A stretch of DNA of 59,930 nt, from IMG/VR virus record IMGVR_UViG_3300035195_000113, positions 1-59,930 of that record. One strand, written 5' to 3'. The DNA comes from a virus. Taxonomy: Duplodnaviria > Caudoviricetes. Below are positions 3,857-32,707 of the stretch, one piece after another. Both the position numbers and the translations under genes were made by a program. The notes beneath the pieces were generated by a model that was not told the DNA's origin, did not search any database, and saw only the letters and a list, made by a program, of their open reading frames with translations. Within the stretch, counting starts at the first letter, position 1, and each line of letters begins with the position of its first letter.

Positions 3857-4588
3857 TTAAAGGGTTTTAGTTAAAAAAAATTGTTGAGGATCAAACTCCT
3901 CGGTCTTAAAAAATAATTTATATTGTTCTGCTGCTTGTTGAACTTTGTCAGCTCCTCTTTCGTAGAACTGTGGTGAGCAGTCAAATATACCTATTTGGTG
4001 AGTTGTTTTGTCTATAACTATAAACAACATTTCATAACCAAACAGTTTACTATAAATATAAGCTTGTGAGTCGTAATTGTACTTAGAAGCTGAATATTTA
4101 AATTTAGTGATGTCTGCTGTTGTTTTCAAATCAATGATCAGCTTTTCATCATGGTTTACAATATCAGCTTTACCTTTCCACATTTCGCCTTCAAGCTCTG
4201 TAATCCCTGGTCTTTCGTATTCTACGTTGTTACCTCGTATAAGATCTCTGCAAACTTCATTTGACATCATTTTATCTGTCATTAGTTCTATCTTATCTAC
4301 CTCCGTTTGTAACAAACATAGTTCACCACCTGAGATCTCTTTATACGCTTTTGAATTTCTATTTGTTGATTCTACAATCTTAAAGTTTTTAAGCTTTTCA
4401 GGTTCTAGTATCGCTGTATGGAAATAACCACCAACTAAAAAAGCAGGTATTTGCTTTGATGGTTGACCTAGCGCTAAAGGATTTGTTAATAAAGTAGAAA
4501 TGTCAGAGTTACTAAGATACTTCTTACCGAAACTACCATAGTAATGCTCATCGTTTTCTAGTTGTTTTAACACATCTTCTTTTTTCAT
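3857..4588 (-). CDS. PD-(D/E)xK exonuclease (RecE/ExoVIII-like)
   Basis: LSNSDI, GGYFHTAILEP, KGKADIV...IIDLKTT, YDSQAYIY. Confidence 0.85.
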   Translation of the reverse strand: MKKEDVLKQLENDEHYYGSFGKKYLSNSDISTLLTNPLALGQPSKQIPAFLVGGYFHTAILEPEKLKNFKIVESTNRNSKAYKEISGGELCLLQTEVDKIELMTDKMMSNEVCRDLIRGNNVEYERPGITELEGEMWKGKADIVNHDEKLIIDLKTTADITKFKYSASKYNYDSQAYIYSKLFGYEMLFIVIDKTTHQIGIFDCSPQFYERGADKVQQAAEQYKLFFKTEEFDPQQFFLTKTL

Positions 4589-5131
4589 CTATAATGTTGT
4601 TAGTTCTTGCTCTGCTTCTTTAGACAGGGCATACTTAGCTTTAATAGCTTCGATTTTACCTCCAGCTTTTACGTAGTCTTTAGCTTTTGCTAACTGATCT
4701 GCTGTTATTGAGGTTTTAGTTTTTGGCGCAAACTTCTTTTTACCATGATCATTAGTGGCATCACTGTCTGCTGTATCGTCAATTAAGAATAAGTTACCTA
4801 ACGCGTATTTTTTAGCGTAAGAAGATGCTGACCCAAACTGTTGAGGTACGTTCATACCTTTTTGGTTTAAGTCTACACCGACTATAGCAGTAGCGTGTAT
4901 AGCATTGTCACCATCACTTACAGAAGCAGTAGACTGCATCATAGGTAAAGGGTCAACACTAATGATCTCTTCATTAATTGTTACTGTAACTCCTAGCTCT
5001 AATAGAAAGGGTTTTGTTGCTTCGAGAATGTCTTCGGCTGATCTGAAGTTGTATTTGCCAAAGGAATTAAATCTACTTTTTTTCGATTTAAATTTTGTCT
5101 GGATTGTAGCCAGCTTTTCGTTTATAGTCAT
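4589..5131 (-). CDS. ERF-family single-strand annealing protein
   Basis: KYNFRSAEDIL and QQFGSASSYAKKYAL ERF motifs; adjacent to the exonuclease. Confidence 0.85.
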   Translation of the reverse strand: MTINEKLATIQTKFKSKKSRFNSFGKYNFRSAEDILEATKPFLLELGVTVTINEEIISVDPLPMMQSTASVSDGDNAIHATAIVGVDLNQKGMNVPQQFGSASSYAKKYALGNLFLIDDTADSDATNDHGKKKFAPKTKTSITADQLAKAKDYVKAGGKIEAIKAKYALSKEAEQELTTL

Positions 5132-10367: not shown

Positions 10368-10374
10368 ATGTTAG

Positions 10375-10448
10375 GTGCGCAGGAAGGATTCGAACCTTCG
10401 ACCTCGAGTTTATGAGACTCGCGAGCTAACCATCTGCTCTACCGCGCA
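10375..10448 (-). tRNA. tRNA with CAT anticodon (Met; atypical initiator-like)
   Basis: Acceptor TGCGCGG/CTGCGCA, D arm GAGC/GCTC, anticodon arm CGAGT-CTCATAA-ACTCG, T arm GAAGG-TTCGAAT-CCTTC; no encoded CCA. Confidence 0.9.
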
Positions 10449-14201: not shown

Positions 14202-15767
14202 ATGGAATATAATAACCCTAGCGAGTTAGTAAAGGAACTATCCTTTGGTGATGATGCTAAACAAAAAGTAATAAATGGTGTAGACAAACTAGCTAAAGCA
14301 GTGAAGTCTACGTTAGGAGCTTCAGGTAAGTGTGTAATTTACGAAGATGCTCGTGGAAGACCGGTGATAACAAAAGATGGTGTAACCGTTGCGGAAAGCG
14401 TAGTCTTAATGGACCCGGTCGAAAACATAGGAGCAACACTTATTAAGGAAGCTGCTAAAAACACAGTGAAAGAAGCAGGTGACGGTACTACTACAGCTAC
14501 CGTACTTGCTGAATCACTACTAAAAGAAGCATCGTCAGCCGTAGGATCTGTAAGAGATATAAAGCTTGGTATTGCTTCTTGTGCTAAAAAAGTAAATGAT
14601 TACTTAGATAGTGTATCTATAGAAGTAAAAGGTGAAATGTTAAAAGATGTAGCAGCTATATCATGTAACAATGATGCTACACTAGGAGCTATAATATCTG
14701 AAGCTTATGAAAAAGTAGGTGAATCAGGTGTTGTACTAATGGAAGAATCAGAAGATGATAGAACATACGTTGAGATTGTTGATGGAGTTCAATTAGAGTC
14801 TGGTTTAAAATCACAGCATCTTATTACTGATAGAGACAAACAAAGAATTGTTCTTGACAAACCAATGGTTTTAATAGTTGCATCGGAAATACCTAACGTA
14901 AGAAAGATACAACCTATACTAGAACATGTTATAAAGCATAAAAGATCACTACTTATAGTAGCTGAAGTTGATACACAGGTATCATCTACGTTACTAATGA
15001 ATAAAGTTAAAGGTAATATTAAAGTAAACTTTATAGATCCACCAGGATTTGGGCCAACAAAGCAAAGTACGCTTGAAGATTTAGCATTTTTAACAGGTGC
15101 TACTATAATGGACGAAAACCTAGGTGATGATTTAGACCTTATAACCGTTGATTGTTTAGGTGAAGTGCAAAAATCGGTCACAGATGATAAAACAACAGTA
15201 CTAACCACATTGGATTTAGGCTTAGATTTAGAAGAAAGGATCAAGGATGTGCACAAAAGCATAAAAAAAGAAAAAAACCAGTACATTAAACGTAGATTAG
15301 AGCAAAGATTAGCCATGTTAAGTGGTTCAGTTGGTATAGTCAAGGTCGGTGCTGATTCAGCTGTTGAGCTGAAAGAGAAAAAAGATAGAGTTGAAGACTC
15401 TATATACGCTGTGAAAGCCGCCTTGAAAGAAGGAATAGTCCCGGGCGGTGGAGTAGCGCTGTTTGATGCAGCAAAAAACATTGAACCAAGCAACTTAGGT
15501 GAAGAAATACTGTTAAAATCAATATTATCTCCATTTTACACTATATTAGACAATGCAGGTATAAAAAACAACGTAGTAAAAGGCGTTGTTACTGGTTACG
15601 GAATAGATGTAACCACTGGCAACTGTGTTAATATGGTTGAAAAAGGTATAATTGACCCAGTACTAGTAACTAAGTCAGCTTTAAAAAATGCAATATCAGT
15701 AGCTTCTACTATAATATCTGCAGATTGTGTAATCTCTAACGTAAGGATCGAAAATGCAAGCAGTTAA
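14202..15767 (+). CDS. groEL: Chaperonin GroEL
   Basis: [34 protein letters not shown]. Confidence 0.97.
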
Positions 15768-21684: not shown

Positions 21685-24600
21685 ATGGCGCAAAAGTTTT
21701 TAAACGGCATACTTTCGGTTGACGGGTCTAGCTCGTCACCTTCATACAGTTTTATAGGCAGAACCGATACTGGTATGTACGCGCGTGCCCACTCCTCAAA
21801 CGACAGAATAGCATTTGCAGTAGATGGAAATGAAAGGTTTTATATAGATGCAAATGGTGTAAACGCTATTGGAAACGTATATTTAAGTTCCGGTAATTCG
21901 GTAAGAAACTATAGTGGTATATGGCAAGCTACAACTGGCGCAACTGAAAATGGTTTTGTATTTACAAACACTGCTGATAGTCAAGTAATGTTTGAAGCTC
22001 AGCACGACTACATACGACACACGTCAGATGGTGCTGCTGCTGATGGTGCTACATTATATTTAAAACACGCAAACAATAATTCTACAGACACAATAGGTAC
22101 CATATTCTTTGGTAACAATGCCGACACAACACTTTCTAAAATAGTTGCAGAAACAAACGGCGCAAACAACACAAGTAATTTAAAATTTGGAACAAGTAAC
22201 ACTGGTACTATGGCTACAGTGCTTACTTTAAGCGGAGATAATATTGCAACTTTTTCGGGTGGTCCCACCTATCATAAAATACAGACATATTACGACGGTG
22301 ATTATACAAGTGGATTTAAATTTTCAGATTACAATGGTGGAATATGGTATGATGCTGGTGCAGATGATTTAACCCTTAATGCCGGACATGCTAATAGCCA
22401 AATGCTTCTTAATTCAGGCGGAGCAATTGCTCTAACGCTGGATTCATCTCAAAACGCAACTTTTGCAGGTAATGTAGGAATTGGAAATTTAGGTACATAC
22501 AAATTAGAAGTTTCTGAAGACGGTGGAGATAGTGGCACTGCAGATTTATTACTTTTAAGAAACTCTAATTCCACAAGGGCTCAAACATTTCAATTTCAAT
22601 TAGATACAGCTAAAGACTTAGTAATTACTGGATCAAGTGGTTCAGGCGGATTTAAATTTGTTCCAGGATCAAGAGGAACAACTTTTACAGGTAGTTTAAC
22701 TGCTGGATCATTTATAAAATCTGGTGGCACATCAGCACAATATTTAATGGCAAATGGTAGTGTTACAACTGGTGTTGCTTCGCATAATCACGATAGTAGA
22801 TATACCTCAATTGATGCCAGTGGAGATAACTACACCTTTGAGATAGAAGATGAGGGTAATTTTTCAGGTAATAAATGGTATCACATTGCAAACATAAATA
22901 GTCACAATGGTGGTTTACATATTAGAGGAGCTATTTTAAATCATGTAGAAAATTTTGCTTCTCAAAAATTAGATATTGCAATACAAGTTAGAGAAGCGGG
23001 TTCTGGTTCAAATGTAGAAATAAATGGTACTGTAGATGTTCATCACAACGATGCTGCTACAAATAGTGCAAATAAAGCAGGTGTTAGAGTTATACAAACA
23101 AGTACGGGTAATACAAGTTACCAAGATTATAAAGTTTACGTTAGAACCACTCAATACTCGCAATTAACTCTTAGATTAACACAACAAGGTTCCGTAACAT
23201 TTAATACAAATCATACTTCACCACTAACCTCAGAACCAGCACCTGTATCAGGTGGTTCAATGGAACTAGATACTTCAGCACTTTTAGAGGGTCATCACGT
23301 TGTAGTTGACAGCACAGTAAAATTAACGGTTGCTACAGATGCTGCAACATTTGCAGGAACTATAAAAGCTCTAGACGGAAGTGCAACTACACCGGCTTAT
23401 AATTTTACTTCACATGATGGCAATGGAATGTATCTTGAAGATTATGATGCAACTAACAATAAAGAACAAGTATCATGGGCTACAGATGGAACTAGAAGAG
23501 CTTGGGTTAATGAACCTGGTTTATGGACCGCGAATAATCTTTATTTTGCTGGTCAACTAAGAAAATTTGGTGAATGGCACGCTACAAGTGGAACAGCTGG
23601 CGAAGGGTTTAAATTTGAAAATACAGCTGATAGCACGACGCCTTTAACTTTAACATCTGCTGGTAACGCAACTTTTGCAGGTACTCTGCGAGTTAACGGT
23701 TCTAATGTTGGAATAGGTGGAGCTGCTGCTAATGCTTCTCATGGAAGTGTAGGAACCAAACTTGATATCAAAGGCGGTGCTGATTCAATTATAATTTTAA
23801 GAGGAGCCGCAGGTGGATCTGGAGCTGATGCATATGTTGCAAGTGAATATGGTTTATACTCATATGATGGAGAATTTACGATTACAAGAACAAATCAAAG
23901 TTCTTGGTGGACTTCTCCTGATTTTAAATTAAGTGGTGGCAACGCCACTTTCGCAAGACACGTTACGGCAGCAGAATATAACCTACCATCAGGTGGTATG
24001 CTCGATTGGGCAAATGGTGATGCTAGAATAGTTGAGGGTGAAACAAATAATTATAGTTTATCATTTAAAACATGGGATGGCACTAATGTAAGCACAGCAT
24101 TAAGATTAGATGGTAATAATGCTGCAACTTTTGCAGGAAAAATTAATGCCTTAGGTGGTGCTAGTATATCTGGTTTTACCGCCGCAACAATAAACGCTTA
24201 TAGTACAACTGTATCTGCTAATTTATTTTCTGCATTAAGAATTATAGATAACACGGGTGCATCAAGTTATTGGGATATAGGTGCCATAGGTGGTGCAAGT
24301 ACATTATTAAATTTTTATCATAATGCCAACACAACTCCTAAAATAAGTTTTACACACACAGGTGGCGCAAATTTTGCAGGTAGTATAAATGTAAACACAA
24401 ATGGTTTAATAAAGTATGAGCAAAATACAGATGTAGATTCTTCTGCAGCTGAAGCAGTAGCGTCTGTAGTGCATGGTACACACACAGCTGCTTTCTTTGA
24501 TTATGTAATTAAAAAAGGTACTAATGTTAGAGCAGGTATTGTAACAGCTTGCCACGATGGAACAAACGTAGAATATGCAGAAACATCAACAGTGGACTTA

Positions 24601-24714
24601 GGTGACACGTCGGATGTAACATTAAGTATAGATATATCAGGTATATACATGAGATTAATAGCAACCACAACATCAAACGACTGGAGTGTTAAATCTTTAA
24701 TAAGAGCAATATAA
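21685..24714 (+). CDS. Modular tail fibre protein
   Basis: G/S/T/N-rich, with modules ending in ATFAG. Confidence 0.8.
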   Translation: MAQKFLNGILSVDGSSSSPSYSFIGRTDTGMYARAHSSNDRIAFAVDGNERFYIDANGVNAIGNVYLSSGNSVRNYSGIWQATTGATENGFVFTNTADSQVMFEAQHDYIRHTSDGAAADGATLYLKHANNNSTDTIGTIFFGNNADTTLSKIVAETNGANNTSNLKFGTSNTGTMATVLTLSGDNIATFSGGPTYHKIQTYYDGDYTSGFKFSDYNGGIWYDAGADDLTLNAGHANSQMLLNSGGAIALTLDSSQNATFAGNVGIGNLGTYKLEVSEDGGDSGTADLLLLRNSNSTRAQTFQFQLDTAKDLVITGSSGSGGFKFVPGSRGTTFTGSLTAGSFIKSGGTSAQYLMANGSVTTGVASHNHDSRYTSIDASGDNYTFEIEDEGNFSGNKWYHIANINSHNGGLHIRGAILNHVENFASQKLDIAIQVREAGSGSNVEINGTVDVHHNDAATNSANKAGVRVIQTSTGNTSYQDYKVYVRTTQYSQLTLRLTQQGSVTFNTNHTSPLTSEPAPVSGGSMELDTSALLEGHHVVVDSTVKLTVATDAATFAGTIKALDGSATTPAYNFTSHDGNGMYLEDYDATNNKEQVSWATDGTRRAWVNEPGLWTANNLYFAGQLRKFGEWHATSGTAGEGFKFENTADSTTPLTLTSAGNATFAGTLRVNGSNVGIGGAAANASHGSVGTKLDIKGGADSIIILRGAAGGSGADAYVASEYGLYSYDGEFTITRTNQSSWWTSPDFKLSGGNATFARHVTAAEYNLPSGGMLDWANGDARIVEGETNNYSLSFKTWDGTNVSTALRLDGNNAATFAGKINALGGASISGFTAATINAYSTTVSANLFSALRIIDNTGASSYWDIGAIGGASTLLNFYHNANTTPKISFTHTGGANFAGSINVNTNGLIKYEQNTDVDSSAAEAVASVVHGTHTAAFFDYVIKKGTNVRAGIVTACHDGTNVEYAETSTVDLGDTSDVTLSIDISGIYMRLIATTTSNDWSVKSLIRAI

Positions 24715-25919
24715 TGGGAATAGCAAGAGGAACAAATATAGTAAAAGATGGTTTAGTGTTTGGGTATGATTCTGGTTACGGTGTTTCTGACAATAATACG
24801 TCAACTAGATTTTATCCTGGTAAACCCACAATAAATGTGCACCCACACCCTTTAGACATATATGCTCAATTACCGCAAGCAACCTCAGTTAGATTAAACC
24901 AAGAAAGAGATACATCTGTATCTTCACCATTAGGAGGAATTGCATATAAAATGACACCTACAGGTGCTGATCCTTACATGGCTACTTACAACAATAGTAC
25001 TTATAACTTAGCATCTGCTGCATCAGGTCAAACATGGACTGCCTCTGTATATGTTAAAGCTAATAGAGCAACAGCTGCTTCGATATTTATATTTGAAGCT
25101 AATTCTAGCGGAGCTTATACCGCGGCTGATGCTAGTACTGTAAATATAGGTACAGACTGGCAAAGAATATCAATAACTAGAACGTTTAACCAATCAAACA
25201 CTGCTTATGTTCAAGCTAGAATTGATGGACCAGACACTTACGCCGCTGGGGACATATTATGGTTTGATGGGTATCAAGTCGAGCAGCAGGGTAGTGTAAC
25301 TCCTTTTGTAAACGGAACAAGATCTGCAACTACTAGTTTGATAGATTTAAAAAGAACAGTTAATGTTGATGTATCAAACGTATCATTTGATTCAACTGGT
25401 CAGCCTGATTTTGACGGCACAGATGATCGTATAGTATCAAGCACGGGTGTTAATTTAAGTTCTTACACGTCTTTAACCTATGAAGGTGTTGTAAAAGCTG
25501 TTGGTTTAGCATCTCACGACAGGTGGTTTAGTGGAACAGCTGGTAGTACATTTCATAATCCTGATCTCGCAATAGGAACAGACGGTCAATTATTATATAT
25601 ATTTGCCAACAGTGGTATTGGTTCTTGGATAGTGCCAAGTGGACTTACAATAGATACAACCAAGTTTAATCATTTAGTCTACACATTTACAAACACCGGT
25701 GTAGTTAGAATATATGTAAATGGTACTCAACAGTATACAGCTACGCATAGCAATGCTACTTTTCCAAATGGATCTAGGTTTATGACAGGTTCGAGGTTTG
25801 ACGTTAACGGTGAAGCAGTTGATGGAAGTATACCAATAACAAAAGTATATTCTAGAGCATTAACGGCAGATGAAGTAATGCAAAACTATAAAGCATATAA
25901 AAACAGATTTAATTTATAA
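24714..25919 (+). CDS. LamG/concanavalin-like lectin protein with a CBM-like insert
   Basis: GLVFGYD N-terminus, FDGTDD, HLVYT...IYVNG, VYSRALTADEV. Confidence 0.8.
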   Translation: MGIARGTNIVKDGLVFGYDSGYGVSDNNTSTRFYPGKPTINVHPHPLDIYAQLPQATSVRLNQERDTSVSSPLGGIAYKMTPTGADPYMATYNNSTYNLASAASGQTWTASVYVKANRATAASIFIFEANSSGAYTAADASTVNIGTDWQRISITRTFNQSNTAYVQARIDGPDTYAAGDILWFDGYQVEQQGSVTPFVNGTRSATTSLIDLKRTVNVDVSNVSFDSTGQPDFDGTDDRIVSSTGVNLSSYTSLTYEGVVKAVGLASHDRWFSGTAGSTFHNPDLAIGTDGQLLYIFANSGIGSWIVPSGLTIDTTKFNHLVYTFTNTGVVRIYVNGTQQYTATHSNATFPNGSRFMTGSRFDVNGEAVDGSIPITKVYSRALTADEVMQNYKAYKNRFNL

Positions 25920-25921
25920 TT

Positions 25922-26257
25922 ATGAGCAGATTTAAAAACAGAAGGTGGTTAGTATTACCAATAGAAAAAATAGATGATATAGATTTTAATCAGGTTCATC
26001 AATCTAATAAAGAATCACTAAGAAAGTCAATTGACGGTAAAAAAACATTTGTAAAATATGAAGTTAATATAATAGAAAAAGATGTTGTTGAAACATATGT
26101 TGATTTAGAAACTGAAGAAGAAAAAACTAATACTGTAAAAGCTGGTACTTACGGAAGACCTAGTGTGTATAGCACAGATTATACAGAATATAACCACGAA
26201 GAAATATTAGCTTTATTAGCTACAGATAAGTGGACTACAAATGAAATAAAAGAATAA
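25922..26257 (+). CDS. Hypothetical protein in the fibre cluster
   Basis: ORF. Confidence 0.7.
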   Translation: MSRFKNRRWLVLPIEKIDDIDFNQVHQSNKESLRKSIDGKKTFVKYEVNIIEKDVVETYVDLETEEEKTNTVKAGTYGRPSVYSTDYTEYNHEEILALLATDKWTTNEIKE

Positions 26258-26258
26258 T

Positions 26259-26966
26259 ATGGCAACATCACTAGGACCAAACTATGTAACAAATGGGTTA
26301 GTTTTTGCTGTGGATATGAGTTCTACTAGATCATATCCAGGAAGTGGAAATACTGTGTATGATTTAACTGGTAACGGATATGATTTTACTTCATCAACTA
26401 GACCTAGCTTTACATCTGTAAATGGAATAGCTTGTATGGATTTTACTAGTGGAAATGGTGAGCATTTAAACAGTGCGATAAACTCTCCGTTTACTGGTGA
26501 TAACTTTGCTATCAGTGTTAGCGCTATAGTTAACGAGAACTCAACAGGTCAGTTTAAATCAATACTAACACAGCATGAGCAAGATAGTACTGACTCTATG
26601 GCTTTTATTTCATACGGTGGTAAGTTTGCAAGTGATCACTGGAACCCAGGAGGTATTCACTTATCTTCAGCGCATGGATCAAATCAAATACATATGGTTA
26701 CATGGACAATATCATCGTGGGACGAACATCAAACAGCTTCTCATAAAATATATTTAAACGGTGTAGCTCAAGCAACAACAGCATACTCTGTAGACACTGT
26801 TGGAGCCTTAGTAGCGGATGTTTTTAGAATTGGTAATTGGCAATTAGATAGATCTGATATGGATTTTGACGGTCAAATATATGCCGTTAGTTGTTATAAT
26901 AAAGAATTAAACGCAGCTGAAGTTTTACAAAACTACAACGCTTATAAAAATAGATTTAATATATAA
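26259..26966 (+). CDS. LamG-like lectin protein
   Basis: GLVFAVD, SYPGSG, IYLNG, YNKELNAAEVLQNY. Confidence 0.8.
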   Translation: MATSLGPNYVTNGLVFAVDMSSTRSYPGSGNTVYDLTGNGYDFTSSTRPSFTSVNGIACMDFTSGNGEHLNSAINSPFTGDNFAISVSAIVNENSTGQFKSILTQHEQDSTDSMAFISYGGKFASDHWNPGGIHLSSAHGSNQIHMVTWTISSWDEHQTASHKIYLNGVAQATTAYSVDTVGALVADVFRIGNWQLDRSDMDFDGQIYAVSCYNKELNAAEVLQNYNAYKNRFNI

Positions 26967-28165
26967 TGTATACAGGACCTAAAACAATAAACAACGGATT
27001 AGTATATGGATATGATACTGCATATGGGGTGACACAAGGTCAACTTGGTACTAGATTTTACCCAGGTGAACCAACCGTTAACCGTGTAACTGACACACCT
27101 GATAATCAAGGTGGTTGGGCTGGTTCTCATACGTTACTAGACTCGGCAACTAAAAAAATGAAATTTAGTATAACTAACTTCAATGGTTCAGCAGGTTCTG
27201 GGCAAGGTTGGAGGTCGTTTACGTGGAATTTAAATGCTTTTTCTGGACAAACCGTAGCTATGTGTGCAACTATTGAAATTCCAGACAATAGCCCAGGTGA
27301 TTTTAGTTGGGTTATGATGGGGCAAACAGTTGAGTCAGGTGGTAATTACTTAGGTTATTCGGCTGGTAGTGAAAGATATTACAAAACTACAAAAACAACT
27401 GAAAAAATATATTGGACAGGCACAATAGGTACAGCTGGTACAGCTGGTCAACCATCTGGTCACGTAGGTTTTACAGTCTGGTATAACGGAGGTACGTCAG
27501 GCACAGCTAGTTTTATACATGTTTCAAATATTCAAATAGAATTAAAATCACACAAAACCCCCTTTGTTAATGGAACAAGATCAAACACACAGGGTTTAAT
27601 AGATCTAAAAAAAACAGCAAGTATAGATTTATCGTACATTTCTTTTGACTCTACAGCTCAACCTACATTTGATGGTGGTGATGACTATATACTTACTCCA
27701 TTTACTAGAGGAACTTTAGGTGATCAATTAACAATGATAGCGTATTACAAGTTTGATGGCAGTACGGGTAGAACGTATACTCCAATATTTGGAGGTAAAG
27801 AAGGTAGCTCAGGTACTGAATTTTTTATAGGTAAAAATAGTGGTAACACACATATAGGTGTGCAAGATGGTAATTATACTGATACTTTTGTACAAGGTAG
27901 TAATGCTTGGGATGGTAACTATCATCAACTAGTTTACACTTACAATAATGGTAGTGGAAAAATATACCTAGATGGCGTGCTTAAAAACACAGGCACTTTT
28001 AGTAAATGTAACGCTGCAGAACAAATAACAGTAGGTAGTGAGGTCGAAGGATCTGGCTACTACATGATAGGAGATATACCAAGAGTGTGTATTTATGACA
28101 GAGTGTTTACTGATGAAGAAGTTTTAGAAGATTTAAAAGCGAATAAACAAAGATTTAATATATAA
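26966..28165 (+). CDS. LamG-like lectin protein (paralogue of 24714)
   Basis: GLVYGYD, TRFYPGEPT, TPFVNGTRS, FDGGDD, IYLDG. Confidence 0.8.
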   Translation: MYTGPKTINNGLVYGYDTAYGVTQGQLGTRFYPGEPTVNRVTDTPDNQGGWAGSHTLLDSATKKMKFSITNFNGSAGSGQGWRSFTWNLNAFSGQTVAMCATIEIPDNSPGDFSWVMMGQTVESGGNYLGYSAGSERYYKTTKTTEKIYWTGTIGTAGTAGQPSGHVGFTVWYNGGTSGTASFIHVSNIQIELKSHKTPFVNGTRSNTQGLIDLKKTASIDLSYISFDSTAQPTFDGGDDYILTPFTRGTLGDQLTMIAYYKFDGSTGRTYTPIFGGKEGSSGTEFFIGKNSGNTHIGVQDGNYTDTFVQGSNAWDGNYHQLVYTYNNGSGKIYLDGVLKNTGTFSKCNAAEQITVGSEVEGSGYYMIGDIPRVCIYDRVFTDEEVLEDLKANKQRFNI

Positions 28166-28186
28166 CCCGGAAAATGAAAGGTAATT

Positions 28187-31100
28187 ATGGCAAATGAATT
28201 TAAAGTAAAAAAAGGTCTAATAGTAGACGGCTCAAATACGGTTCTTGATATACAAGGAACGCAAGGGCAATTGTTTTCGGTAACAGATAGTCTTACTGGG
28301 GATTTATTTTCTGTTTCAGACGTGTCAGGTATACCTATATTAAACGTTAACTCTAGTGGCGTTATAGATGTTGATGGTTATATAAACGTAGATGGTTATA
28401 TAAATTTAAGTGGTACAACCACTGATTATTACATAGGTGGTAGTGGTGGTGGTAAAGCAACCAACGAACTTAGAATAGGGTCTGCAACAACCACTAACAC
28501 TGTAGCTTTAGAATTATATCATTCAGCAAATCCAGTTTCATTAGGTGTAAGTTATAGTGGAGGTGCAGGTTTAGCATTTATTGAAAGTGCACATAGTAGC
28601 TATGATGTTAACACTCACGTGTTATTTAAACCAGGAGGTACGGAAACTTGGAGAATAGGCTCACACGGCACAAACGCTAGCAGCAAGTTCGAAATTCGCC
28701 CAGCAGCTGCAGGACATGATTTTGTTTTAGCAGATAATTCTGGAAACTCTATTATAACATCAGACACAAGTACAAAGGCTGTTACTTTTGCAGGAAATAT
28801 AACAAGTACGGCTGGTTATATACAAGCTTATGCAAATTCAGATACAGCTCCTGGTTTTAGAATGCAATCAAATGATACGCATGGTTGGGAATTTTTACAC
28901 AGAGGTACAGAGGGTGATTTTGCATTAAACAGAGAAACAAGCGGGACTACAACGCAGGCATTAAGAATATCAAGATCAACTGGTGCTGCAACTTTTGCAG
29001 GTGATGTAACCGTAACTGGAGGTCAATTATTTTTAGGAGGTACTACATATGCTATAGAAAATGTAAGTAATAATTATGGTATAAGAAATTCTAGTGGTAA
29101 CTATGGTGGTAGTGATGATACCAATGCTTATACCACTCCTCAAGACTTTTTTCATATACCAGGAATTGTAAGAATTGGTCCTAAATTTGCAACAACAGAT
29201 AGAGATCATATTAGGATAGTTCCAGCAGGATCGACCTCAACTATTGAGATGCCTAATGAAAACGCTTATATACATAATAACGCAGGTAACATAGTTTTAA
29301 GAACTGGTTCAAGTACAGACGCTGTTATAGTATCAGGTGCAAATACAGCTTTTGCAGGTAGAATAACATCAACTAAATCATCATCACACACAGCACAAGG
29401 TACTTTCAGCGCAGCAAATGCACACTTAGATTTATACAATAACTTAGAAGCTAATACAGATCAGAAAGGATCTATAATAAATTTTTCAGATAATTATTAC
29501 GATGGTAGTAGTTATATTAAAACAACAAGAGCTGGTATAAAAGGTGGTACAGACGTTACGGGTAATAACGGCGCTGGTTATTTAGAATTTTATACAAATC
29601 ACAGTTCTGCTAATACACCAAGACTTGTTTTAAGATTAGATAAAGATAAAAACGCAACTTTTGAAGGTGAAATTACTTCAGGTGATGATATAAACACACC
29701 TACTAAAGTAGTAGTTGGTGAAAGTGCAACATCAGAAGTAAGATTAAAGAAAACAAACGCTGGAAACGCTAAGCTTAGTTTTTATAATAACGATGGTACT
29801 TCTAGCACGCAGCAATCATATTTATCACTTGACGCAACAGAGAATATTGTTTTGTATGGAGCTAGCGGTGTAGGCCAATATTTTTATGCGGGTGGTGTGT
29901 TAAATGAAACAAAAATAGGAGCAAATTCAACTTTTGCAGGTAGAGTTAAAGGTGTAAACTTTACTTCTAAAGAAAACGCAGCAGCTGGTGGTTTTATAGC
30001 TAGTAGAGATTATTTGATAGCTGGAACAGGAGACAGAGGTGGAGGTTTAGTCATTAATGATGTTTCAGGTGCAAGACACGCTTTATACGCTGGTGGTCAT
30101 GATTTAACATTTGCTAAAGAAACAGACGATGGATCTGGCGCTATAAGCCATGATATATGGATGAGAGCAAATGCTACTAACTCAGCAGGAAACGTAACTA
30201 GTTTAGAATTCTTTAAAAATGCAACTTTTGCAGCGCAAGTGTCAACTGGTGGAGACTTAACAGTTGGTGGTACTAGTGGAGATACCGGTAATGCTTTTGC
30301 TGTAAATAGAGGTAGTGATGGAGCTCAAGCTTTAAGAATACAGAACACAGGTGAAGTTGTAACTACTGCAAATTATTTTTACGCTGCTTCTAGCGGTACA
30401 TCTATGTATGTTCAGAACACAGCTATATTTAGAGGTGCGATTCAAAATGATGGTGGAGATGTAAGAATTGCTGACAACTTAAAAGTAGATAATAAAATTG
30501 GTATTGGAGTATCTCCAACAACACTATTACATTTAGACGGTACTGGTGACGCTATAAGAGTAGAATCAAAAAATACTGGTAGCGCTGGTGCTCAAATGGA
30601 TTTATTATATTTTAAACAAACTAATGCACCTGCTGATGATGATATTCAAGGTTTAATTAATTTTGGTGGATATTATTCTGGCACGAGTTCAGCATACTCT
30701 TCATCAATAAGAAGTGTTTGGACGGATGCATCTGAAAAGCATGGTCAATTAGAGTTTTGGACTAGAGATGATACTGATTTTGCACAAAGATTAAAAATAG
30801 ATCATGATGGTGCTGCAACTTTTACAGGAAACGTTGATATATACACAGGTGCTGGCTCAGCTACTCTTAACATAGGTAGAAATGCTAGTGAGAAATTACA
30901 AATAGACCAAACTGATCAAGAAACTGTTTTAACCGCTAACAATGATTCAGATAGTGATGGCACCCATAATTTTAGATTAAATAGAGTATTTGCAGGTACA
31001 GGTGCTAATAATTTTAAAATACAAAAGGGTGGTGTAGACCAACTTTCTATAGATACCAACGCTAATGTTACTATTGACAGCTCATCTGCGTCTGGTAGCA

Positions 31101-32707
31101 CCGTGTTAGACGTGCAAGGTACTTTAGGTCAACTATTCTCTGTAACAAACAGTTTAACTGGTGATTTATTCTCAGTATCAGATGTTTCAGGTGTTCCAAT
31201 ATTTAATGTTAATTCTAGTGGTTTATCTACTTTTGATGGAGATGTTAAAATTGATGGAGCAGTTGAAAACAATGGGATAACAACATACAACACCCCTGCT
31301 GGTGGCGTTGCTTTTAATTTAGATGCCGCGGCTGATAACTATGGTACATTTCGTTTAAGAACAAATGGAAATGCTAACAAGTGGGATGTAGGTATGAAAA
31401 ACGATAATGATTTTTATATTTATAACCAAGCCACTAGTGCTCAAGCTTTTGAAATAGATACAGCAAATAACATAGCAACTTTTAGCGCTACTACAAAATC
31501 AACAAGATTTACCTCAACAACAGCCTCTGGTTTACATTTTTCTAATTACACTGGAACTCAAGGTTGGCAAATTGGATCTGATAGTACAGCTGCTGGAATG
31601 TATATCTATAATGAAAATGGTACTTATGCAATGAAGCTTACTAGTGCTGGTACCGCAACTTTTGCAGGTAGTGGTACTTTTGCAGGAAATCTAACTGTTC
31701 AAGGTGGCACTTTAAATTTATCAGATGGTTCAACTTATGATTCTATAATAAATGCAGGATCTTCTTTAGCATTAAACTTTGATACCGATAATGATAGCAC
31801 TGGAGAGCTATTTAGAATCAATCATAATACAACAGCTATAAATGCAAATAATTTATTTAGTATAACAGAAACCGGTGCTGCAACTTTTGCAGGTACTGGT
31901 ACTTTTGAAACAACTCTTAATGTAAGCGCAACAGATGGTGGTGGCGCACCAGCTATGACAGCTGTAATAAACATGGCTGGTTATGAAGGTCGTGGTGTTG
32001 GAATAAAAATGAAAGATAACGTCACTACTAGCGGCGGCGGTGATGATAATGAGTGGTTTGTAGGTACTGGTTACAACCAGAGCGGTTTTAACATTGGATA
32101 TGCTGCTAATGGTTCTCAATCATCTTATTCTGCTCAAGCAAAACTTCAAATATCAACAAGTGGTACCGCAACTTTTGCAGGTAGTGTTATTGCTGGCGTA
32201 AGTGGAGTTGGTAATATTTACGTAGGAAATAATGCAACTGGAAATTTTGCAAGGTTCCATACAAATAATTCAGATACTTACTTTGATATGTCTTGTGGTG
32301 ATGTAATATGGAGACAAGGAAGTTCTGGTGGTAGTCATAGATTTGAACATGCTATGACCACCGGAACCTTTACATCATCTGGAGATATTGTAGCATTTGG
32401 ATCACCATCAGATAAAAGATTAAAAGAAAATATTAAACCTATTGAATCAGCGTTGAGTAAAGTAAGTAAATTACAAGGTGTAACGTTTGATTGGAAACAA
32501 TCAGATAGTATATTAGATATAAAAGAAGATATAGGGTTTATAGCGCAAGATGTAAAAGAAGTTGTACCAGAGCTTGTTAGAGAAAATGAAGATGGCATGT
32601 TATCAATGAGACACCAAGGTATCGCACCAATACTACTTGAAGCTATAAAAGAATTAAAAGCTGAAATAGAAGAGTTAAAGTCTAACAAATGTAATTGTAA
32701 TAAATAA
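28187..32707 (+). CDS. Long modular tail fibre with C-terminal intramolecular chaperone (peptidase S74)
   Basis: ATFAG-bounded modules; SDKRLKENI...GFIAQDV...LLEAIKEL. Confidence 0.9.
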   Translation: MANEFKVKKGLIVDGSNTVLDIQGTQGQLFSVTDSLTGDLFSVSDVSGIPILNVNSSGVIDVDGYINVDGYINLSGTTTDYYIGGSGGGKATNELRIGSATTTNTVALELYHSANPVSLGVSYSGGAGLAFIESAHSSYDVNTHVLFKPGGTETWRIGSHGTNASSKFEIRPAAAGHDFVLADNSGNSIITSDTSTKAVTFAGNITSTAGYIQAYANSDTAPGFRMQSNDTHGWEFLHRGTEGDFALNRETSGTTTQALRISRSTGAATFAGDVTVTGGQLFLGGTTYAIENVSNNYGIRNSSGNYGGSDDTNAYTTPQDFFHIPGIVRIGPKFATTDRDHIRIVPAGSTSTIEMPNENAYIHNNAGNIVLRTGSSTDAVIVSGANTAFAGRITSTKSSSHTAQGTFSAANAHLDLYNNLEANTDQKGSIINFSDNYYDGSSYIKTTRAGIKGGTDVTGNNGAGYLEFYTNHSSANTPRLVLRLDKDKNATFEGEITSGDDINTPTKVVVGESATSEVRLKKTNAGNAKLSFYNNDGTSSTQQSYLSLDATENIVLYGASGVGQYFYAGGVLNETKIGANSTFAGRVKGVNFTSKENAAAGGFIASRDYLIAGTGDRGGGLVINDVSGARHALYAGGHDLTFAKETDDGSGAISHDIWMRANATNSAGNVTSLEFFKNATFAAQVSTGGDLTVGGTSGDTGNAFAVNRGSDGAQALRIQNTGEVVTTANYFYAASSGTSMYVQNTAIFRGAIQNDGGDVRIADNLKVDNKIGIGVSPTTLLHLDGTGDAIRVESKNTGSAGAQMDLLYFKQTNAPADDDIQGLINFGGYYSGTSSAYSSSIRSVWTDASEKHGQLEFWTRDDTDFAQRLKIDHDGAATFTGNVDIYTGAGSATLNIGRNASEKLQIDQTDQETVLTANNDSDSDGTHNFRLNRVFAGTGANNFKIQKGGVDQLSIDTNANVTIDSSSASGSTVLDVQGTLGQLFSVTNSLTGDLFSVSDVSGVPIFNVNSSGLSTFDGDVKIDGAVENNGITTYNTPAGGVAFNLDAAADNYGTFRLRTNGNANKWDVGMKNDNDFYIYNQATSAQAFEIDTANNIATFSATTKSTRFTSTTASGLHFSNYTGTQGWQIGSDSTAAGMYIYNENGTYAMKLTSAGTATFAGSGTFAGNLTVQGGTLNLSDGSTYDSIINAGSSLALNFDTDNDSTGELFRINHNTTAINANNLFSITETGAATFAGTGTFETTLNVSATDGGGAPAMTAVINMAGYEGRGVGIKMKDNVTTSGGGDDNEWFVGTGYNQSGFNIGYAANGSQSSYSAQAKLQISTSGTATFAGSVIAGVSGVGNIYVGNNATGNFARFHTNNSDTYFDMSCGDVIWRQGSSGGSHRFEHAMTTGTFTSSGDIVAFGSPSDKRLKENIKPIESALSKVSKLQGVTFDWKQSDSILDIKEDIGFIAQDVKEVVPELVRENEDGMLSMRHQGIAPILLEAIKELKAEIEELKSNKCNCNK

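What the first reader, a model, noticed from the sequence alone, without database searches (positions are those of the whole stretch)
22246..32182. Quasi-palindromic DNA repeat GCAACTTTTGCAGG marks tail-fibre module junctions
Exact 14-mers occur at 22456, 23668, 24124, 28988, 31655, 31880 and 32168, with near copies at 22246, 22678, 23344, 24367, 28781, 29345, 29654, 29927, 30221, 30815, 31475 and 31673, across two different genes. They encode ATFAG, but synonymous positions are nearly fixed (GCA ACT TTT GCA GG) although GCT is common elsewhere, and the core GCAA-CTT-TTGC is an inverted repeat. Modules between repeats are mutually divergent. Inference: in-frame crossover points for cassette shuffling of fibre modules, possibly by the phage ERF/exonuclease pair, giving host-range diversification without an invertase or DGR.
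Basis: partly seen in the sequence, partly recalled or inferred. Interest (0 to 1): 0.75.

Follow-up and report, generated by a model that had tools for sequence, protein, structure and literature searches.

The report
Fixed DNA linker shuffles fibre modules
A 14-letter DNA word, spelled the same way even where the genetic code allows other spellings, sits at the borders of interchangeable segments in the tail-fibre genes of marine phages and appears to be where these phages swap segments.

Summary
GCAACTTTTGCAGG occurs 7 times exactly (0 expected), with about 15 near copies. All are in frame on the + strand, in two fibre genes: A (21685-24714) and B (28187-32707, Peptidase_S74 C-terminus).

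The synonymous fixation is also real and specific to this word. In 47 ATFAG sites with unrelated flanks, from the window and 65 protein-ascertained IMG/VR loci, the codons are GCA 47/47, ACT 46/47, TTT 46/47 and GCA 45/47. The next Gly codon follows background usage. Other recurrent fibre peptides (VGIG, GIGT, LFSV) use free codons. Background and context codon bias do not explain this.

Homology blocks between phages start and stop on the word. Of 195 copies in 40 dereplicated fibre ORFs, 84 are homology boundaries and 1 is spanned. Shared modules never keep their neighbours (0 of 36). L003 joins a gene-A module to a gene-B module exactly on the word.

No reverse transcriptase, tyrosine recombinase or serine recombinase was found. 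An Erf annealase plus PDDEXK exonuclease pair is present.

Best reading, at about 0.7: an in-frame short-homology linker for cassette shuffling of fibre modules. The enzyme and the host-range effect are inferred. It is a new variant of the known motif-mediated recombination in tail fibres.

The parts
21685..24714 (+). Fibre gene A (1009 aa). It carries 9 copies of the word or variants of it.
   Evidence: ORF, translation. No Pfam or PHROG hit. It shares modules with gene-B-type fibres.
28187..32707 (+). Fibre gene B (1506 aa) with a C-terminal Peptidase_S74 intramolecular chaperone. It carries 13 copies or variants.
   Evidence: PF13884 at aa 1408-1465, E 1.3e-19. PHROG tail-fibre families. 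PDB 8jov and 6f45 match only the C-terminus.
22246..22259 (+). Near copy GCAACTTTTTCGGG (ATFSG).
   Evidence: A 95% identical N-terminal block to L065 ends here. The L003 block starts here.
22456..22469 (+). Exact copy.
   Evidence: The L003 block ends here. Contigs from other metagenomes begin, end or diverge here.
22678..22691 (+). Near copy ACAACTTTTACAGG (TTFTG).
   Evidence: The L005 block ends here.
22855..22868 (+). Degenerate copy GGTAATTTTTCAGG (GNFSG).
23344..23357 (+). Near copy GCAACATTTGCAGG (ATFAG, with ACA for Thr).
23668..23681 (+). Exact copy.
   Evidence: X5 contig piece 23346-23681 has unlike flanks on both sides.
23944..23957 (+). Degenerate copy GCCACTTTCGCAAG (ATFAR).
24124..24137 (+). 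Exact copy.
   Evidence: The L019 block ends here.
24367..24380 (+). Near copy GCAAATTTTGCAGG (ANFAG).
28781..28794 (+). Near copy GTTACTTTTGCAGG (VTFAG).
28988..29001 (+). Exact copy.
   Evidence: The L001 block 28988-29359 starts here.
29345..29358 (+). Near copy ACAGCTTTTGCAGG (TAFAG).
   Evidence: The L001 block ends here. An X4 contig diverges after it.
29654..29667 (+). Near copy GCAACTTTTGAAGG (ATFEG).
   Evidence: The L131 block starts here.
29927..29940 (+). Near copy TCAACTTTTGCAGG (STFAG).
   Evidence: The L001 and L004 blocks start here.
30221..30234 (+). Near copy GCAACTTTTGCAGC (ATFAA).
   Evidence: The L004 block ends here.
30815..30828 (+). Near copy GCAACTTTTACAGG (ATFTG).
31475..31488 (+). 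Degenerate copy GCAACTTTTAGCGC (ATFSA).
   Evidence: The L025 block starts just after it.
31655..31668 (+). Exact copy. It shares a 26-nt identical run with the copy at 32168.
31673..31686 (+). Near copy GGTACTTTTGCAGG (GTFAG), 18 nt after the previous copy.
   Evidence: The L025 block ends here.
31880..31893 (+). Exact copy. It shares a 21-nt identical run with the copy at 28988.
   Evidence: The L003 block starts here.
32168..32181 (+). Exact copy.
   Evidence: The L003 and L065 blocks end here.
32240..32253 (+). Degenerate copy GGAAATTTTGCAAG (GNFAR).
4589..5131 (-). Erf-like single-strand annealing protein. It is the candidate recombinase; this is inferred, not shown.
   Evidence: phrog_155, E 1.7e-36. 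Homologues at 68-92% identity in 3 of 3 near-complete related records.
3857..4588 (-). PDDEXK-type exonuclease next to erf.
   Evidence: phrog_412 exonuclease VIII, E 2.2e-33. PF12684, E 4.2e-24.

Best explanation
The word GCAACTTTTGCAGG is an in-frame DNA linker at the borders of roughly 65-200-residue fibre modules.

The two fibre genes of this phage, and those of many uncultivated marine relatives, are chains of very diverse modules, each ending in the peptide ATFAG. The phage is a podophage of Flavobacteriia, judged by its terminase. Because that peptide is always spelled with the same 12-14 bases, any two module borders share a short stretch of exact identity. The stretch is 14 nt at least, median 15, and sometimes 20-36.

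Recombination across this stretch keeps the reading frame and the domain border, so whole modules are swapped, permuted, gained or lost. It can occur between co-infecting phages, between the two fibre genes, or between copies within one gene.

The word stays fixed at synonymous sites for two reasons. Only intact copies recombine, so every new junction regenerates it. Lineages that lose it freeze their fibre.

The most likely catalyst is the phage's own Erf annealase with its PDDEXK exonuclease. Replication template switching or host recombination are alternatives.

Shown:
- The word exists and is enriched.
- The synonymous fixation is specific to it.
- Homology boundaries coincide with it at nucleotide resolution.
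- Chimeric and permuted junctions exist.

Inferred:
- The enzyme.
- The direction of causality.
- The effect on host range.
For: Enrichment.

Synonymous fixation:
- In 47 flank-distinct ATFAG sites, GCA 47/47, ACT 46/47, TTT 46/47 and GCA 45/47.
- The following Gly codon is free (GGT 29, GGA 13, GGG 4, GGC 1).
- The preceding Asn codon is free (AAC 29, AAT 28 in the unbiased set).
- Control peptides in the same ORFs are free: for VGIG the commonest DNA word is 6 of 81 sites, for GIGT 9 of 75, for LFSV 4 of 19.
- Background usage and neighbour-dependent usage do not explain it.
- 4-fold sites inside homologous modules are only 59% identical (2216 of 3743), so there was time for synonymous change.

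An unbiased 12-mer census of 142.8 kb of fibre ORFs puts words derived from this motif on top, at 105 occurrences in 37 of 40 ORFs.

Boundaries:
- 13 of 30 block ends on the word, null 2.4.
- 74 of 570 ends on the word, null 16.9.
- Homology starts pile up at offsets -10 to +4 and homology stops at +5 to +24, with the mode at +13/+14.
- Copies with 0-2 mismatches: 84 boundaries and 1 spanned. Degenerate peptide-like sites with 3-5 mismatches: 25 boundaries and 33 spanned. Control positions: 229 and 643.
- L142 and L173 are 91.8% identical over 2.08 kb. The block passes four degenerate sites and stops at the first consensus copy.

Shuffling:
- 229 modules fall into 211 families.
- In 25 homologous module pairs the upstream neighbour differs in 21 of 21 evaluable cases and the downstream neighbour in 15 of 15.
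- At the L003 junction, identity to gene A goes from 0.76 to 0.30 across the word, and identity to gene B from 0.31 to 0.80.
- Module order in L001 is reversed relative to the window.
- Protein module aa 387-496 occurs in 40 of 72 metagenomic homologues, at subject positions 204 to 1515.
- Protein HSP ends also cluster at the motif.

Independent metagenomes:
- 13 of 23 listed contig-piece ends inside the two genes lie within 9 nt of a copy.
- About 10 of 24 listed loose ends lie within 13 nt of a copy.
- Ten of the window's own junctions are bridged by contigs from other runs.

Enzymes: the Erf and exonuclease pair is present and conserved. Passages of PMC3945230 report that an Erf/Exo pair recombines short and diverged sequences as well as lambda Red does.
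Against: - Fourteen bases are shorter than the minimal efficient pairing segment quoted for Red-beta (23-27 bp) and for RecA (31-34 bp) (PMC3945230). Only 9% of unrelated copy pairs share 20 nt or more, so each event must be rare.
- All evidence is comparative. No recombination event was observed.
- BLAST ends are pulled towards a conserved island within about 10 nt, which inflates the peak somewhat.
- The loci, proteins and runs may share samples, so they are not fully independent.
- A minority of homology starts lie 30-65 nt after the word. This is unexplained.
- Selection for future evolvability is a weak force. The regeneration argument may not be enough to hold three synonymous sites at 96-100%.
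- The module fold is unknown: both structure models had low confidence.
Confidence: 0.7

Rival explanations
1. This is a protein motif only. ATFAG is a structural element at the end of a repeated fibre domain. Recombination happens anywhere, and only in-frame recombinants that preserve the domains survive, so boundaries cluster there. The DNA identity would then be incidental, for example a translational preference.
For: - Modules are weakly paralogous and all end in the same peptide context: a hydrophobic strand, then G-N/A, then ATFAG.
- The low-confidence model places the motif after the last strand of the module.
- The related peptide GNVGIGT occupies the same place in other fibres.
Against: - Protein-level selection cannot fix three synonymous sites at 45-47 of 47 while the neighbouring Gly and Asn codons, and other recurrent peptides, stay free.
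- GCA is not the preferred Ala codon (0.28).
- The only tRNA gene is tRNA-Met.
- Degenerate sites with a similar peptide are spanned by homology in 33 cases. Near-consensus DNA copies are spanned once.
Confidence: 0.15
2. The word is a nucleic-acid signal read by a dedicated factor. It could be a binding or cutting site for a phage protein, or a pause or hairpin signal. Its conservation would reflect that function, and recombination would be a consequence of breaks made there, or unrelated.
For: - The constraint is sharply limited to 12-14 nt, which is the size of a protein site.
- There is partial dyad symmetry: GCAA N3 TTGC, extended to 6 bp in copies preceded by CT.
Against: - The symmetry accounts for only one of the three fixed synonymous sites.
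- Hairpin energies are weak and inconsistent.
- No reverse transcriptase, tyrosine recombinase or serine recombinase was found.
- No candidate factor was identified.
- The word occurs only in fibre genes, as coding sequence.
Confidence: 0.1
3. This is an assembly artefact. Metagenome assemblers join different phages at the shared word, which creates false mosaics.
For: All related sequences are metagenomic contigs. Some copy pairs share 20-36 identical bases.
Against: - The word is shorter than the usual assembly k.
- Ten of the window's junctions are bridged by k=31 contigs from other runs.
- The same boundaries appear in proteins from several sources.
- The codon fixation itself cannot be an assembly effect.
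Confidence: 0.03

Closest known systems
Conserved motifs of T-even phage adhesins: gp38 glycine-rich motifs, and the gp37 'His boxes' (the His-box name is recalled).
   Same: Short conserved motifs separate hypervariable segments of a host-range determinant. [quoted passage not shown]
   Different: - There the motifs keep a fixed order within one domain and the variable loops are swapped allele for allele. Here whole modules are permuted, move between two genes, and almost never keep a neighbour.
- Fixation of synonymous sites to one 14-nt word was measured here against controls. I did not see it reported in the passages I read, and I could not read the Tetart papers.
- The phage group and the host phylum are different.
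Collagen-like repeats between domains of Streptococcus thermophilus phage antireceptors.
   Same: Repetitive in-frame sequences separate the domains of the host-range protein (one passage of PMC5601072 citing Duplessis and Moineau 2001). That they act as recombination points is recalled, not read.
   Different: Those are long low-complexity Gly-X-Y tracts. Here a single unique 14-nt word occurs once per border.
Invertase and shufflon systems (Cin, Gin and Min of P1, Mu and p15B; Rci of R64) and diversity-generating retroelements. All recalled.
   Same: They diversify the distal parts of fibres or pilins within one genome.
   Different: Those need inverted sites plus a site-specific recombinase, or a reverse transcriptase with a template repeat. 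Here all copies are direct and neither enzyme type was found.
Linker sequences of the modular theory of phage evolution (recalled), and the mobile promoter stem-loop cassettes of T4-type phages (PMC2839356, seen only as title and start of abstract in the listing).
   Same: Short conserved DNA between exchangeable units is proposed to guide recombination.
   Different: Those lie between genes. This one lies inside a coding sequence, in frame, and doubles as a conserved peptide.

Membership tests
Motif-mediated modular recombination in phage tail-fibre genes (T-even type) | Short conserved motifs separate variable segments of a fibre or adhesin gene. | tested here: met
   22 copies or variants bound divergent modules in two fibre genes.
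Motif-mediated modular recombination in phage tail-fibre genes (T-even type) | Exchange end points lie in or next to the motifs. | tested here: met
   The evidence is comparative only.
Motif-mediated modular recombination in phage tail-fibre genes (T-even type) | Recombinants obtained in crosses, with changed host range. | not testable with these tools
   No cultured member: GenBank phages share no module DNA.
Site-specific inversion systems (invertase or shufflon) | Sites in inverted orientation and a serine or tyrosine recombinase gene. | tested here: not met
   All copies are direct, on the + strand. PF00239 and PF00589 found nothing in the record, which is about 90% complete.
Diversity-generating retroelement | Reverse transcriptase with a template/variable repeat pair. 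| tested here: not met
   PF00078 found nothing. The repeats are 14 nt long, not template-length.
Tail fibre with intramolecular chaperone (Peptidase_S74) | C-terminal S74 domain. | tested here: met
   Gene B aa 1408-1465, 70.7 bits against a cut-off of 22. Gene A has no such domain.
Erf single-strand annealing protein with partner exonuclease | An Erf-family match next to an exonuclease gene. | tested here: met
   phrog_155, E 1.7e-36, and phrog_412 / PF12684 in adjacent genes. Activity was not tested.

The most novel reading that the evidence does not exclude
The word is the recognition site of a dedicated, so far unidentified phage factor that nicks or pairs DNA at this quasi-symmetric 12-14-mer. 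The fibre genes would then be a programmed in-frame cassette-exchange system, a third kind of fibre diversifier beside invertases and retroelements, rather than a passive short homology.
Probability: 0.08. Interest if true: 0.9.

Novelty: new variant of a known kind. Interest (0 to 1): 0.7.

Why it matters
- It is an unusually clean natural case in which the DNA spelling of a peptide, and not only the peptide, is conserved, apparently to keep modules exchangeable. That makes the old 'linker' idea of modular phage evolution directly testable by synonymous recoding.
- It describes how abundant marine Flavobacteriia phages may build an almost unlimited set of fibres: 211 module families among 229 modules sampled.
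- It suggests a simple design rule for building shuffled fibre libraries in laboratory phages.
- It shows that site-specific synonymous constraint in virus genes can flag recombination signals.

Tried and rejected
- Structure of the modules. AlphaFold2 on aa 1089-1405 of gene B without an alignment gave pLDDT 42. On module aa 380-505 with 25 homologues it gave pLDDT 56.6, with four strands. Both are too poor for a fold search, so none was run.
- PDB by sequence. Only the S74 C-terminus of gene B matched, and gene A matched nothing.
- GenBank phages. No DNA match to either gene. tblastn matched only the C-terminus, at 33-40%. The nearest record by terminase, MW202828.1 (62%), has a different fibre set and was not analysed further.
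- The search for related loci with gene A gave only 2 loci.
- Hairpin idea. Weak and inconsistent.
- Joints in laid contigs. They are nearly all word-to-word, but the shorter side is 20-36 letters, so they may come from other phages that share the word. They are not used as evidence.
- Long direct repeats between the genes at 24400-28450: none.
- Literature. 'ATFAG' gave 17 papers; none of the 15 listed is relevant. 'His box' + gp37 + recombination gave 0 papers. Searches for fibre module, crossover and synonymous and for Flavobacterium phage fibres gave nothing on this word. I therefore found no description of it in the held library. Subscription papers and supplements were not visible.

Full report
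**What the window is.** The window is a whole IMG/VR virus record of 59,930 bases, about 90% complete by CheckV's estimate, with 34.5% G+C.
- Its terminase is 62% identical to that of an uncultured podovirus record.
- It is about 45% identical to the terminases of Flavobacterium, Cellulophaga and Tenacibaculum phages.
- Near-identical DNA is held by marine and seawater metagenomes.

I therefore read it as a marine podophage of Flavobacteriia; the host is inferred.

**The observation.** GCAACTTTTGCAGG occurs 7 times, always on the + strand. Shuffles gave 0.00. With up to 3 mismatches there are 22 matches against an expected 5.2. All but one lie in two ORFs, 21685-24714 (gene A) and 28187-32707 (gene B). 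Every copy is in frame and encodes ATFAG or a one-step variant.
- Gene B ends in a Peptidase_S74 chaperone domain and matches PHROG tail-fibre families.
- Gene A has no family match, but it carries the same repeat and shares modules with B-type fibres.

**Codon fixation.** In the other genes of the window Ala is GCT 0.61 and GCA 0.28, and Thr is ACA 0.45 and ACT 0.42. Yet 7 of 8 ATFAG sites read GCA ACT TTT GCA, where the per-site expectation is 0.03-0.05. Conditioning on the neighbouring residue does not change this.

I then used 65 IMG/VR loci that were found through peptide words outside the motif, so they were not selected for the DNA word.
- Together with the window they give 47 ATFAG sites whose 30-nt flanks are less than 75% alike.
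- Their codons are GCA 47/47, ACT 46/47, TTT 46/47 and GCA 45/47.
- The next Gly codon follows background usage (GGT 29, GGA 13, GGG 4, GGC 1).
- The preceding Asn codon is split AAC 29 to AAT 28.
- Other peptides that recur in the same ORFs use free codons. The commonest DNA word is 6 of 81 sites for VGIG, 9 of 75 for GIGT and 4 of 19 for LFSV.
- Four-fold sites inside homologous modules are only 59% identical, so synonymous sites had time to change.

The constraint therefore acts on DNA or RNA, and it is confined to 12-14 bases. In a census of all 12-mers in 142.8 kb of fibre ORFs, words derived from this motif come first.

**Breakpoints.** Inside genes A and B, blastn matches to other phages are short blocks of 145-372 nt at 66-86% identity that begin and end on the word.
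- 13 of 30 ends of 15 dereplicated blocks fall within +-3 nt of a copy. Permutation gave a mean of 2.4 and a maximum of 8 in 5000.
- Among 40 dereplicated fibre ORFs with three or more copies, 74 of 570 internal block ends lie on the word (null 16.9, sd 3.9), and 105 lie within 10 nt.
- At single-base resolution, homology starts pile up at offsets -10 to +4. Homology stops pile up at +5 to +24, with a mode at the last base of the word.
- Of 195 copies with up to 2 mismatches, 84 are homology boundaries and only 1 is spanned by a block that runs on at both sides.
- Sites with a similar peptide but 3-5 DNA mismatches are boundaries 25 times and spanned 33 times. Control positions score 229 and 643.
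- L142 and L173 are 91.8% identical for 2.08 kb. The block passes four degenerate sites and ends at the first consensus copy.

One caution applies: a conserved island attracts BLAST ends from about 10 nt around it. That inflates the peak, but it cannot make the spanned class vanish.

**Shuffling.** In L003 a module of gene A (window 22243-22470) abuts a module of gene B (31877-32188). Across the word, identity switches from 0.76 to 0.30 for gene A and from 0.31 to 0.80 for gene B.
- Four junctions with both parents identified overlap by 12-18 nt.
- In L001 two modules of gene B stand in reversed order.
- The 229 modules of the 40 ORFs fall into 211 families at 70% identity.
- In 25 pairs of homologous modules the upstream neighbour differs in 21 of 21 evaluable cases and the downstream neighbour in 15 of 15.
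- At protein level, 72 metagenomic homologues each cover only 15-54% of gene B aa 190-700, and their alignment ends cluster at the motif.
- Module aa 387-496 occurs in 40 of those 72, at positions from 204 to 1515.

**Independent samples.** I laid contigs of four other marine metagenomes on the window. They bridge ten of the window's junctions, so those junctions are not assembly errors.
- 13 of the 23 listed piece ends inside the two genes lie within 9 nt of a copy.
- About 10 of the 24 listed loose ends lie within 13 nt of a copy.
- Two listed pieces are 98-99% identical to one module and unlike the window beyond the word.

Only 32 of 1,491 pieces and 24 of 580 loose ends were listed. The word-to-word joints have short sides, so I do not use them.

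**Mechanism.** All copies are direct, and no reverse transcriptase, tyrosine recombinase or serine recombinase was found. That excludes inversion systems and retroelements as far as a 90% complete record allows.

An Erf-like annealase and a PDDEXK exonuclease are adjacent at 3857-5131. Erf homologues occur in 3 of 3 near-complete related records and in neither of 2 less complete ones.

Passages of PMC3945230 report two relevant points:
- An Erf/Exo pair recombines short and diverged sequences as efficiently as lambda Red.
- The minimal efficient pairing segment is 23-27 bp for Red-beta and 31-34 bp for RecA.

The identical run between unrelated copies has a median of 15 nt. It is 20 nt or more in 9% of pairs, and up to 26 nt within the window. 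Events must therefore be rare, which fits evolution over populations rather than a programmed switch.

I infer that the spelling is held for two reasons. Only intact copies recombine, so every new junction restores the word. Lineages that lose it stop diversifying.

The quasi-palindrome explains one of the three fixed sites, and its hairpin is weak. I regard it as largely a by-product of coding Ala-x-Phe-Ala.

[quoted passage not shown] Collagen-like repeats between the domains of dairy-phage antireceptors are a second parallel (one passage of PMC5601072).

What is new here:
- A single unique 14-nt word with measured synonymous fixation.
- Almost complete loss of linkage at every copy.
- Permutation of modules, and exchange between two genes.
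- The phage group.

I found no mention of the word in the held library.

**Verdict.** The role of Erf and the effect on host range remain inferences. I file it as a new variant of a known kind, with interest 0.7.

Noticed in passing
L086, L091, L092, L096, L108, L111 and other loci (not in the window): A second fibre peptide, ERMR(I), also shows a preferred DNA spelling: GAA AGA ATG CGT. In 47 flank-distinct sites AGA is used 32 times and CGT 36 times. L086 uses its own variant in 7 copies. This suggests lineage-wise homogenisation of another module-border word.
   Followed up: partly
window 24714-25919, 26259-26966, 26966-28165: Three paralogous genes between the two fibre genes carry Laminin_G_3 (concanavalin-like lectin) domains and share C-terminal ends. 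They may be further receptor-binding proteins.
   Followed up: partly
window 28187-28550 and about 31000-31390: The N-terminal adaptor of gene B is repeated inside the same gene: aa 2-121 against about aa 940-1070, at 45% identity. This segment is the most widely shared piece among related loci.
   Followed up: partly
window 31655-31686 and 31880-31911: Two places where a copy of the word is followed 18 nt later by a second partial copy (ATFAGSGTFAG and ATFAGTGTFET). These may be scars of staggered exchange.
   Followed up: no
40 fibre ORFs, offsets +30 to +65 after the word: A minority of homology blocks start 30-65 nt downstream of the word rather than on it. This is unexplained.
   Followed up: no
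window 14202-15767: A phage-encoded GroEL-like chaperonin (phrog_5725, E 3.5e-131). MW202828.1 also has groEL and a 10-kDa co-chaperonin annotated.
   Followed up: no
window 10374-10448 (-): A single tRNA-Met gene, the only tRNA in the record.
   Followed up: no
window 30973-31000: A further degenerate motif-like site (RVFAG, AGAGTATTTGCAGG) picked up by the repeat finder.
   Followed up: no
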